DNA from: Nemertoderma westbladi
Taxonomy: Eukaryota; Animalia; Xenacoelomorpha
Direction of reading: 5' to 3'
NCBI GenBank assembly: GCA_032718475.1
Contig: JAUCBJ010005653.1
Span: forward strand, 1-64,000
Length of the DNA: 64,000 nt
Part shown: positions 55,301-58,148 of the stretch, piece by piece
Layout: each line of letters begins with the position of its first letter
How positions within the stretch are numbered: the first letter of the stretch is position 1
Made by a program: the position numbers and the translations under genes
The notes under the pieces: generated by a model
Database searches by the model: none
What the model was told of the DNA's origin: nothing
Seen by the model: the letters and a program-made list of their open reading frames with translations, nothing else

Positions 55301-58148
55301 TTGAATATAAATGCTCACATATGATTTATAAAATAACAAAAGCTGTAGTATCCGTTCTAGTTTTATTAGTTTTCTAGTACAGTATTGTATTTATCGGCTA
55401 GAAACATCACGTTAAAATTCTCAGATGCATTTTTTTTGATCACATTATTTAATATTTCTTAAAAAATTAAAGAGTTATCATCATTTTTCTTTCCACCAAT
55501 CAGATCGCTCTAGACGGACAAAATATTTACAATGGATGCTGCACGTTGAGGATCGATTATTCCAAACTCACGAGTCTGAATGTCCGGTATAATAACGAGA
55601 AGAGCAGAGACTATACGCGGCCAGACCTTCCGTTTGGGGAAACCCCTCCAACCAACGCAGCAACTACCCCTATAGACCCACAAGGTACGCCGAGTATCAG
55701 AACTACAGTAGTAGCCCCTATACACTTCATAATTAAATTAACCTAAAAGAAAAAAAAAACATTTTTTATTAAACATTAAATACGTAATCCAATAACCAAC
55801 TCCAAAATAAACATAACCAAATGAGGGGCAAATTTAAAAACATAATATCGGCCTTTACTGTATTTCTGTGTACCGGTATAATTGTTTATGATGCCCAGAG
55901 GTTTATGATGCACGATTATGTATACTAAATGCAGTATTATTACTACAGACCGGTAGTATTTGACTTAATTCTATACTTCTCCAGAACTCTTCACTCTCAC
56001 TTTAGAGAAAATGAATGACTTGAAATATATAATATTCATACGCAGGTAATACCGCGTTCCTTTTCCCTCAAAACACATTGTTCTCCGGTATTCCACCGGG
56101 ACTTATAGCCACAGGAAATCCTTTTAATCAGACAGGATTGGCTGTAACACAGGCCGCTGCTTTGGCCAACCTACGTAACCTAGCAACAGCTGCGGCGATT
56201 GGACAAAGCTCAACAACTGTACTTATCACGTCTAACCTTAATTCTGAGGTAAGTTGTTGTTCTTTATCTTTGAGATGTTATAAATCAATAAGGTTGGAAA
56301 ATAAAACTTAATATTTATATTTAAGTGTTTAAATCAGATTCACAAATCGTATTTGGTGATGTACTTAATTTCATTAAGAAATCCAACCGGTATATATTAA
56401 ATAATCTACCTTAATTAAAAAAGCCGATGTTATTAAAAAAGTATTTATATATATTTACTTACATAACGATAAAATGCGTTGCGTTATGATGTACCCCTAT
56501 AATATTTTGATACACGTTACGAGTAAACTATAATAATTTTGTGTAATTTATTCATCTATTAAGTATATTTAAGCATTGTTTGCATCAAATATATCAAAAT
56601 TGATGCTAGTTAGATGCTATTTGGTGCTAGTTACCCCGGATAATAAATAGATCAACGCAATAAATAAAGTTAACAATTATATTAATAAGGCGGTTTATTC
56701 TGAATAACTTACTAATACAATTACTTTATTAAAATTTCCTTCACTTTATTTCACCCAAATTGAAGTTTTTACTTTGCTTCATCTCACATTCTCGACCATT
56801 AATTATTATGTAACAATGAATCAATCCAATCCGAAATGTAATTAATCGCACACTCTAGTGTTTCACCGCATCAATTATTATTTCATTTCCTTTTCCTCTC
56901 TTTGCCGCTGGGTGCTGCTGCTTGCTATGTTATTCCTCTATAGAAGATTACTCCCGACGCTCTGTTCACTCTCTTTGGTATGTTGTTATGTATCTTAACT
57001 TCTTTTACTTTCAGTACTTAGTAGAATAAAGAAGAATTAACATACCCAAATGTATTAACAATGACAATGTTTAAGTTAAAATGTCAGAAAATCTATAAAA
57101 AAATAAATTCAGTTTTTCGTCATTATAACTTTTAATGGAGATTAAAAAGTATGGAGTCCTATTCAAGAAACGGAAAATAATGACATTTTTAATTTATTAA
57201 CATTTCTACTTTAATACAAAAACAACATAATTAATTATTTACAATAACTAATTATTCTGTATTTCTACTCAGTTACACCACAATTTTTTCATTCATTTAA
57301 ATAAATATTTAATATTTATTTAGATAAAAATTGGCCTCTGCCCAGCAACCAAGCTTAAATTATTCTTATAATATCTTCAGTAATTATTATTATTAATTAA
57401 GAGTCTCTATATTGAAGTCTATATTGACCAAATTTTCGTTAATGATTGCGTACAGTAATAGTTTTGATCATTGAGTTCGTTTCCATGGTAAAGGATATAT
57501 TTTATTTTTTTAATCAATTAATTGTAATTCTATATACAGTATACATGCAAAAACTATCAAACTAAACCATATCCCACCAAAATCTCGGTAAGTGCAAAAT
57601 AAAATACAAAGAGCATCTACCACAATCCAAAATATTGTTGAATGGATAAAGCTGAGTTTACAGAATAAGTTACAAATACAATCGGATATTTTAAAAGTGA
57701 TGCCAATTTTTAACTAAAAATGTTAAATTAATAACTTCAAATACAAAATAATGTTTTCATTATTTGGAATCATCGCATAGAAATTTACCACAAAACATTT
57801 TACCTATGAATACAGTGTTCCGTGATCGGGTTGAAATCAATAACCCGTGACATATTTTTATAACCCTGTAGTAAGCCTAGTAAGAGTTCGTCTAGCAGGT
57901 TCGTCTAGCATTAAGTAGGTGTACATATCTTCTAGAAGTATCCTCGAGTACGCAAGGCATATTGTATTAAATTAAATAGGCCCTACATATTAGAGTTGTT
58001 GTCCTTACTAGGATCTCCTGTAACAATTCGATTACAAATTCCTGGTATTTCCTAGGTGTATACGGCGATGTGCAACGTGTGAAAATACTTTATGCAAAGA
58101 AAGACAACGCACTCATCCAACTCATTGATCCAAACCAAGCACAATTAT
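40222..58148 (+). CDS. PTBP1: Polypyrimidine tract-binding protein (PTB/hnRNP I family), spliced gene; start uncertain, 3' exons not found in this window
   Basis: Ten GT-AG exons with consistent phases: 40222-40312, 40762-40787, 47467-47628, 49820-49966, 50428-50601, 53708-53815, 55504-55684, 56046-56248, 56944-56977, 58056-58148. They encode PTB RRM1, RRM2 and the start of RRM3. The symbol denotes the family, not one-to-one orthology. Confidence 0.93.
40762..40787 (+). CDS. PTBP1: PTB 26-nt microexon (GIASNEAKK)
   Basis: TTTTAG| ... |GTAAGC; phase 1 to 0; NEAKK-VKLD parallels vertebrate NDSKK-FKGD. Confidence 0.7.
41883..42042 (+). repeat. 20-bp minisatellite (GAAGATGTGTCTCCGACACC)x8
   Basis: Perfect tandem array; explains five overlapping spurious ORFs. 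Confidence 0.97.
44054..44320 (+). mobile_element. Short non-autonomous Helitron
   Basis: A|TCTATACCTATAAAA 5' end, (CT)n microsatellite, imperfect subterminal hairpin (~44285-44311) and CTAG|T 3' end; no TSD. Confidence 0.7.
47467..47628 (+). CDS. PTBP1: PTB exon, RRM1 first half
   Basis: [46 protein letters not shown]| ... |GTGAGA; 162 nt. Confidence 0.95.
48545..48640 (-). ncRNA. Minimal type-I hammerhead-ribozyme-like motif in a Penelope-like pLTR remnant
   Basis: Minus strand: GCCA-CTGATGA-A-GGCC-[GTATAAT/ATTATAC hairpin]-GGTT-GAAA-TATT-TGGC; stem I GCCA/TGGC; stem III reduced to a palindrome. Confidence 0.55.
48755..48985 (+). mobile_element. tRNA-derived SINE with Deu/Nin-like core
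   Basis: CACTCAGCCTTTCATCC...GGGGTCGATAAAATGAGTACCAG core (~48818-48860), degenerate tRNA head, structured 3' tail ending in a T-run. Confidence 0.7.
49820..49966 (+). CDS. PTBP1: PTB exon, RRM1 second half
   Basis: [18 protein letters not shown]...[14 protein letters not shown]; 147 nt; TTTAG| ... |GTAGGT. Confidence 0.95.
50428..50601 (+). CDS. PTBP1: PTB exon, linker and start of RRM2
   Basis: ...[20 protein letters not shown]; 174 nt; CTGTAG| ... |GTGATT. Confidence 0.93.
51102..51556. mobile_element. MITE-like element with ~28-bp TIRs
   Basis: ACTAGAAAGCCAGCAAGCTGGCTTTAA ... TTACAGCCAGCTGGCTGGCTTTTCTAGT. Confidence 0.6.
53708..53815 (+). CDS. PTBP1: PTB exon, RRM2
   Basis: [26 protein letters not shown]...AQAAK; 108 nt; CTCTAG| ... 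|GTAAGT. Confidence 0.97.
54230..55160. mobile_element. Old foldback/MITE-like element with long diverged inverted arms
   Basis: For example GTTGCGTTTAAAATATCTCTAAATGAAGATTTCTTTCTTCCC (~54498-54539) vs GGGAAGAAAGCAATCTTAATTTAGCGACATATTAATCGCAAC (~54925-54966). Confidence 0.45.
55504..55684 (+). CDS. PTBP1: PTB exon, end of RRM2
   Basis: [42 protein letters not shown]; 181 nt; CAG| ... |GTACGC. Confidence 0.97.
56046..56248 (+). CDS. PTBP1: PTB exon, RRM2-3 linker and start of RRM3
   Basis: Ala/Pro/Gly-rich linker ending [11 protein letters not shown]; phase 1 to 0; CGCAG| ... |GTAAGT. Confidence 0.9.
56859..56943 (+). promoter_or_regulatory. Extended pyrimidine-rich 3' splice-site region with CU-rich and YGCY motifs upstream of the 34-nt exon
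   Basis: No AG from 56859 to 56941; TTTCATTTCCTTTTCCTCTCTTT followed by six YGCY motifs (56903-56926). Confidence 0.6.
56944..56977 (+). CDS. PTBP1: PTB 34-nt exon ([12 protein letters not shown]), equivalent of PTBP1 exon 11 / PTBP2 exon 10
   Basis: CTATAG| ... |GTATGT; phase 0 to 1; peptide matches the RRM3 VTPQSLFILFG position. Confidence 0.95.
58056..58148 (+). CDS. PTBP1: PTB exon, RRM3
   Basis: [31 protein letters not shown]; 93 nt; TCCTAG| ... |GTAAGT. Confidence 0.97.

What the first reader, a model, noticed from the sequence alone, without database searches (positions are those of the whole stretch)
56859..58148. Vertebrate-type PTB autoregulatory splicing-NMD switch in an invertebrate-like genome
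Seen: the RRM3 exon at 56944-56977 is exactly 34 nt. Skipping it joins phase-0 GAG (56248) to 58056 and reads GTG TAT ACG GCG ATG TGC AAC GTG TGA. That stop (58080-58082) lies 66 nt upstream of the next junction (58148), beyond the ~50-55-nt NMD threshold. The exon is pyrimidine-rich (TCTGTTCACTCTCTTT) and has U/C tracts on both sides. Established: mammalian PTBP1 exon 11 and PTBP2 exon 10 are 34-nt exons repressed by PTB, and skipping them triggers NMD. Inference: the same feedback loop operates here, which would make it ancient.
Basis: partly seen in the sequence, partly recalled or inferred. Interest (0 to 1): 0.8.

Follow-up and report, generated by a model that had tools for sequence, protein, structure and literature searches.

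The report
Known PTB self-limiting exon, new animal
This animal's gene for the splicing regulator PTB has a 34-base exon whose skipping would create an early stop, so it likely limits its own level by the feedback loop already shown in mammals and in the roundworm C. elegans; this is an ordinary new example.

Summary
A PTB gene has a 34-nt RRM3 exon at 56944-56977, and skipping it gives TGA at 58080-58082, 66 nt before the next donor. The inference is likely right but not new. Tomioka et al. 2016 (PMC4876481) showed the same 34-nt exon, NMD and PTB-dependent skipping in C. elegans ptb-1. The switch is therefore shared between mammals and a nematode, not vertebrate-type. Comparative support: the exon is 34 nt in 20 of 22 genomic relatives where it was captured, and 31 nt in 2. 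Two non-vertebrate contigs lack exactly these 34 nt. Its donor is GTAYGT in 15 of 16 genes, against 2 of 16 for the next exon. The stop position is weak evidence, since about half of synonymous recodings give it. Skipping, NMD and PTB control were not shown in this animal. A more unusual feature lies upstream: two intact tandem copies of the exon that starts RRM2 (50428-50601, 50661-50753). The scan had no earlier PTB note.

The parts
47467..47628 (+). PTB exon, first part of RRM1 (162 nt, phase 0-0); the most 5' exon found
   Evidence: tblastn 59-65% identity to vertebrate PTBP1; AG/GT limits and open frame
49820..49966 (+). PTB exon, rest of RRM1 (147 nt)
50428..50601 (+). Exon copy A: linker plus start of RRM2 (174 nt, phase 0-0); Cys at the Tyr193-equivalent position
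50661..50753 (+). Exon copy B: duplicate of the RRM2 start (93 nt, phase 0-0), 59 nt after copy A; keeps the Tyr
   Evidence: weak RRM_8 match, below Pfam's cut-off
53708..53815 (+). PTB exon, middle of RRM2 (108 nt)
   Evidence: 68-76% identity to vertebrate PTBP1
55504..55684 (+). PTB exon, end of RRM2 (181 nt)
   Evidence: 78-80% identity to vertebrate PTBP1
56046..56248 (+). PTB exon, RRM2-3 linker and first strand of RRM3 (203 nt, ends in phase 0); equivalent of PTBP1 exon 10
56857..56943 (+). 87-nt AG-free zone with CU-rich tract, four UGC within 40 nt of the acceptor, and tandem TAG-AAG acceptor; nearest branch-point-like A at -99
56944..56977 (+). 34-nt cassette-type exon in RRM3, equivalent of PTBP1 exon 11, PTBP2 exon 10 and C. 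elegans ptb-1 exon 11
   Evidence: PMC4876481
56978..57017 (+). GTATGT donor and 71% pyrimidine tract
58056..58148 (+). 93-nt RRM3 exon, equivalent of PTBP1 exon 12
   Evidence: matches PTB/PTBP2 RRM3 chains 1qm9, 2adc, 4cq1, 2mju at E about 1e-9 to 2e-9
58080..58082 (+). TGA reached only in the skip frame; formed by the Val-Lys codons GTG AAA

Best explanation
The 34-nt exon at 56944-56977 belongs to this animal's PTB gene, its skipping would shift the frame to a stop at 58080-58082, and it is likely the ancestral feedback exon that PTB protein represses so that the skipped mRNA is likely destroyed by nonsense-mediated decay. Shown here: gene identity, exon limits, the frameshift and stop, the pyrimidine tracts, the conserved donor, and exact 34-nt skip forms in two other invertebrates. 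Inferred: when PTB is abundant it binds the CU-rich tracts in and around the exon and blocks its definition; the 56248-to-58056 product is then degraded or yields a protein without most of RRM3 and without RRM4, so PTB output falls.
For: (1) C. elegans ptb-1 exon 11 is a 34-nt RRM3 cassette; its skip form rises in smg-2 mutants and vanishes in a ptb-1 mutant (PMC4876481, section 11 read whole; discussion passage). The mammalian loop is described in PMC3856098 (passages). (2) Of 36 genomic relatives, 22 held the exon: 20 with an AG at 34 nt and 2 at 31 nt only, both 3n+1. (3) Contigs L003 and L012 lack exactly the 34 nt that their near-identical partners L002 and L031 have, and stop at the same place. 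L012 groups with Mya arenaria in a quick tree (SH-aLRT 100). (4) Donor GTAYGT in 15 of 16 genes for this exon, against 2 of 16 for the next exon; the AG-free zone is longer before this exon in 15 of 16. (5) Four-fold silent sites are pyrimidine in 160 of 219 cells in this exon, against 204 of 387 in the next exon, over 33 distinct exons (related sequences, so not a probability). (6) In the window the exon is more pyrimidine-rich than its peptide requires: 0.68 against 0.59-0.60, reached by 2-5% of recodings; CU motifs 5 against about 1, reached by 1-2%.
Against: No transcript, NMD or PTB-binding evidence exists for this animal. The stop is not special, and the Val codon that makes it is GTG or GTA in 29 of 40 relatives, against 49 of 79 at two other Val positions of the exon. 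The AG-free zone is 87 nt, far shorter than human (381) or Fugu (590) (PMC1431707, passages). 46 of 1,688 YAG sites in the window reach 87 nt, and exon 49820 of the same gene has a longer zone, 186 nt. CU-motif counts upstream (6) are no higher than before two other exons of the gene (6 and 7). The loop can be lost: L080, from a 58-kb contig, has an unbroken PTB frame with no intron on either side of these 34 nt.
Confidence: 0.75

Rival explanations
1. The exon is constitutive in this animal. Its length reflects two conserved intron positions, its pyrimidines reflect the Leu/Phe-rich peptide, and the stop is a by-product of the Val-Lys codons.
For: The stop arises in about half of synonymous recodings, and some stop in 97-99%. 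The peptide alone gives 59-60% pyrimidine. The AG-free zone is modest.
Against: Intron position alone does not explain the retained GTAYGT donor (15 of 16 against 2 of 16; none of the gene's other 8 donors has it), the most pyrimidine-rich flanks in the gene, or the silent-site excess. Skipping occurs in a nematode and in two other invertebrate contigs.
Confidence: 0.12
2. The exon is skipped, but mainly under another regulator that reads the UGC cluster next to the acceptor (an SRRM-type activator, or an MBNL/CELF-type protein), or the skipped mRNA escapes decay and makes a two-RRM protein.
For: Four UGC lie within 40 nt of this acceptor and none before the other 8 exons. SRRM4 acts through UGC near 3' splice sites and promotes PTBP2 exon 10 (PMC11701043, passages). 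A 10-nt run matches in register with vertebrate-like L011 (13 of 2,000 shuffles) and with L033 (33 of 2,000). Skip contigs L003 and L012 were abundant enough to assemble.
Against: The 10-nt matches are the best 2 of 16 comparisons and are weak after allowing for that. The same review says SRRM4 is absent from invertebrates. In C. elegans the skip form depends on PTB-1 and is NMD-sensitive. A UGC activator could also act alongside PTB repression, as it does in mammals.
Confidence: 0.13

Closest known systems
C. elegans ptb-1 exon 11 (Tomioka et al. 2016, PMC4876481; section 11 read whole, discussion and legend passages)
   Same: 34-nt cassette in RRM3 of an invertebrate PTB gene; skipping gives a frameshift and an early stop.
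   Different: There NMD and PTB-1 dependence were shown by mutants; here neither is tested. The worm has a second promoter giving an isoform without RRM1; this gene has tandem RRM2 exon copies (a second promoter was not tested here).
Human PTBP1 exon 11 (Wollerton et al. 2004, not read; seen through PMC3856098 and PMC1431707 passages)
   Same: Same place in RRM3, CU-rich exon and flanks. Vertebrate-like loci L001, L005 and L011 have the same 34-nt exon and a stop 66 nt before the next junction.
   Different: The human AG-free zone is 381 nt with a branch point at -351; here it is 87 nt with the nearest branch-like A at -99.
Mammalian PTBP2 exon 10 (PMC11701043 and PMC3856098, passages)
   Same: Homologous exon; UGC motifs near the acceptor.
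   Different: It is cross-repressed by the paralogue PTBP1 and activated by SRRM4. No paralogue could be tested here, because no genome is held.

Membership tests
PTB/hephaestus family | RRM1, RRM2 and RRM3 sequence of PTB type, in order | tested here: met
   tblastn with four PTB proteins; best named hits are PTBP1 proteins; RRM3 exon matches only PTBP1/PTBP2 chains, 4 of 4 PDB hits
PTB/hephaestus family | Complete RRM3 and RRM4 | tested here: inconclusive
   No exon after 58148 found in the window; the gene probably runs past 64000; no genome held
PTB exon-11 AS-NMD switch | 34-nt (3n+1) exon at the start of RRM3, phase 0 to phase 1 | tested here: met
PTB exon-11 AS-NMD switch | Skipping gives a premature stop in the next exon | tested here: met
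   TGA 58080-58082; largely forced by the protein
PTB exon-11 AS-NMD switch | CU-rich PTB-type elements in and around the exon | tested here: met
   Flanks the most pyrimidine-rich of 9 exons; exon above the synonymous null at 1-5%. Binding itself not tested.
PTB exon-11 AS-NMD switch | Very long AG-free zone with distant branch point (vertebrate form) | tested here: inconclusive
   87 nt, against 381 (human) and 590 (Fugu); relatives range from 74 to 478 nt
PTB exon-11 AS-NMD switch | The exon is skipped in vivo | tested here: inconclusive
   Not seen for this animal, as no reads were laid; seen in two other invertebrate contigs
PTB exon-11 AS-NMD switch | Skip form is degraded by NMD | not testable with these tools
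   Needs NMD inhibition
PTB exon-11 AS-NMD switch | Skipping depends on PTB level | not testable with these tools
   Needs knockdown or a minigene

The most novel reading that the evidence does not exclude
This single PTB gene combines the ancient feedback exon with a lineage-specific choice between two old, intact copies of the exon that starts RRM2. One copy replaces the nearly invariant Tyr193-equivalent of the cofactor-binding pocket with Cys. One gene would then make two PTB proteins with different RRM2 surfaces, a splicing-level counterpart of the vertebrate PTBP1/PTBP2 split, and the two forms might repress the 34-nt exon to different degrees.
Probability: 0.3. Interest if true: 0.5.

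Novelty: new member of a known kind. Interest (0 to 1): 0.15.

Why it matters
The feedback exon adds one more lineage to a mechanism already shown in mammals and C. elegans. The comparative by-product is modestly useful: an exact skip form in a mollusc-like contig and in a second invertebrate, a donor kept as GTAYGT across distant animals, and an apparent loss of both flanking introns in one lineage. The tandem RRM2 exons would matter more if both are used, because PTB's RRM2 start is nearly invariant and my one search found no paper on exchangeable RRM2 exons.

Tried and rejected
No whole genome is held for the window, so paralogues, the 3' exons and NMD genes could not be checked. The one sequencing-run search, on 49700-58300, listed no RNA holder. 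That is no evidence on expression, and no reads were laid. A search with the linker exon found no relative. The nested phosphatase found nothing closer than 38% identity, so the animal stays unidentified. Motif and frame scans found no 5' NLS exon beyond 27000 and no exon after 58148 (motifs recalled). Protein hits were inspected for skip-type truncated forms and none was convincing. The careful tree did not finish in two runs, so only the quick tree is used. Cluster look-ups named none of the metagenome proteins by species. Rejected: the 66-nt distance as evidence of selection; 'vertebrate-type'; a firmly conserved UGC element (weak). Paper searches; searches returned nothing. No supplements were read, and subscription papers such as Wollerton 2004 are outside the library, so more invertebrate cases may be in print.

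Full report
Observation. Inclusion keeps the frame open; skipping reaches TGA at 58080-58082, 66 nt before 58148. tblastn with four PTB proteins maps the gene on the + strand from 47467, and exact limits give nine exons with AG/GT ends and one open frame. The 93-nt exon matches only PTBP1/PTBP2 RRM3 chains in the PDB, 4 of 4 hits. No later exon was found in the window, so the junction at 58148 is inferred from its donor and from the unfinished RRM3. The acceptor is tandem (TAG-AAG), which allows an in-frame 31-nt form.

More than chance? The flanks are unusual. The upstream 70 nt are 75% pyrimidine, a level reached by 3 of 1,688 YAG sites on the + strand, against 54-64% for the other eight exons. 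The downstream tract is 71%, against 38-59%. The exon is somewhat richer than its peptide demands: 0.68 against 0.59-0.60, reached by 2-5% of 20,000 synonymous recodings under two codon models. The stop is not unusual: it comes from the Val-Lys codons, and 50-52% of recodings place a stop at least 55 nt before the junction, 97-99% somewhere in the exon. The AG-free zone of 87 nt is reached by 46 of 1,688 sites and is exceeded by exon 49820 of the same gene (186 nt).

Relatives. A scan of metagenome contigs with the 93-nt exon's peptide confirmed 430 of 511 pattern matches and kept the best 80. Of these 80, 36 have an intron before the exon, 42 run on in frame and 2 do neither. In 22 of the 36 the short exon was captured: 20 have an AG at 34 nt, and 2 at 31 nt only. 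In the other 14 it was not found within the 0.4-4.0 kb held upstream; several of these resemble loci whose intron is 4.4-6.5 kb. The two odd contigs, L003 and L012, lack exactly the 34 nt present in their near-identical partners L002 and L031, and both stop 66 nt before the end of the exon. That is 2 of the 44 loci without an intron at this point. They are assembled contigs of other species, read here as transcripts because they lack introns.

Conserved splice features. For 15 loci (7 near-duplicates of the 22 dropped) plus the window, the donor is GTAYGT in 15 of 16 for the short exon and in 2 of 16 for the next exon. The AG-free zone is longer before the short exon in 15 of 16. Over 33 distinct short exons, four-fold silent sites are pyrimidine in 160 of 219 cells, against 204 of 387 in the next exon; a set of 16 with a different peptide gave 34 of 51 against 103 of 201 (63 of the 80 loci plus the window entered). 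These sequences are related, so the counts are not independent tests. Against selection on the stop: 42 of 57 distinct 93-nt exons have a stop at least 55 nt upstream and 11 have none, and the Val codon involved is hardly enriched for GTG/GTA. L080 has no introns around these 34 nt in a 58-kb contig, so the loop is dispensable in some copy or lineage.

Lineage. The animal is unidentified. In a quick tree of 37 proteins the window's PTB falls with vertebrates and two unnamed proteins (SH-aLRT 96), outside the groups that hold Mya, insects and Onchocerca; its branch is long (0.83) and the careful search did not finish. This hints at a non-protostome but is not firm. L012 groups with Mya (100); L003 is unplaced beyond being outside the vertebrate group.

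What is known. Tomioka et al. 2016 (PMC4876481; section 11 read whole; discussion and legend passages) found a 34-nt cassette, exon 11, in C. elegans ptb-1. Its skip forms are stabilised in smg-2 mutants (inclusion about 77% to 65%) and absent in a ptb-1 mutant, and the authors note that role, position and size are conserved with mammals. The mammalian loop is summarised in PMC3856098 (passages), the long AG-free zones in PMC1431707 (passages), and SRRM4/UGC activation of PTBP2 exon 10 in PMC11701043 (passages).

Mechanism. Shown: exon, frameshift, stop, tracts, conserved donor, and skip forms in other invertebrates. Inferred for this animal: PTB binds the CU tracts and blocks the exon, the skipped mRNA is degraded, and PTB output is buffered (0.75). 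Rivals: a constitutive exon (0.12), or skipping run mainly by a UGC-reading factor or without decay (0.13). The four UGC next to the acceptor are unique among the gene's nine exons, but their match to relatives is weak. Whether this animal uses the mammalian junction rule for decay is unknown.

The odd part lies upstream. The exon that starts RRM2 is present twice: copy A at 50428-50601 (174 nt, with the linker) and copy B at 50661-50753 (93 nt), 59 nt apart and both phase 0-0. A, B, both or neither all keep the frame. Over the last 23 codons the copies share 12 residues, and 8 of those 12 codons differ. Second codon positions agree in 21 of 23 and third positions in 8 of 23, which points to an old duplication with both copies constrained as protein. 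All 35 of the 80 loci with a hit to this segment show one copy, but most of them are intron-free contigs, where two alternative copies could not appear together. Copy A has Cys where 152 of 153 motif matches in the stored proteins have Tyr and one has Phe. By spacing in the alignment this is Tyr193, which lines the Raver1 peptide pocket (PMC3420021, passages); the same paper reports that mutating Tyr193 had no effect in a tethering assay, so the consequence is open. Mutually exclusive use is inferred, not shown; a 59-nt intron could also be spliced to include both. One search found no paper on this.

Verdict. The feature is real and likely functional, and it is a further instance of a mechanism shown in mammals and C. 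elegans. Interest 0.15. The tandem RRM2 exons deserve a separate look with RNA data.

Noticed in passing
window 50428-50601 and 50661-50753 (+): Two intact tandem copies of the PTB exon that starts RRM2, 59 nt apart, both frame-preserving; codon position 2 agrees in 21 of 23 and position 3 in 8 of 23; copy A has Cys at the Tyr193-equivalent. Candidate mutually exclusive exons.
   Followed up: partly
window 61187-61969 (-): Intron-free 260-aa PHOSPHO1/2-type phosphatase ORF (PF06888, E 9e-51; 32-38% identity to its 13 hits), antisense and probably nested in the PTB intron after 58148.
   Followed up: partly
window 56944-56946: Tandem acceptor allows a 31-nt form of the exon that lacks one Lys; L004 and L006 have only the 31-nt form, and L050-L052 have both options.
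   Followed up: partly
window 55960-56008 (+): A second CU-rich stretch with several AGs lies 40-80 nt upstream of the linker exon's acceptor; using these AGs would meet stops. Possible further unproductive splice choice.
   Followed up: no
L080:8558-10516: Unbroken PTB reading frame in a 58-kb contig, with no intron around the 34-nt segment; L042, L062 and L078 carry a similar peptide. A lineage or retrocopy that cannot use the feedback exon.
   Followed up: partly
L033:1-130: Contig in which the 34-nt exon is joined to the next exon while the upstream intron is still attached; its acceptor has a UGC cluster like the window's.
   Followed up: partly
window 10664-19401 (-), 1308-3759 (+), 19475-20199 (-), 33779-34237 (-), 63585-63896 (-): Frames that look, by recalled motifs, like a broken BEL/Pao-type LTR element and several LINE reverse-transcriptase fragments; not searched.
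   Followed up: no
window 25896-26705: Tandem repeat of about 21 nt, open in several frames.
   Followed up: no
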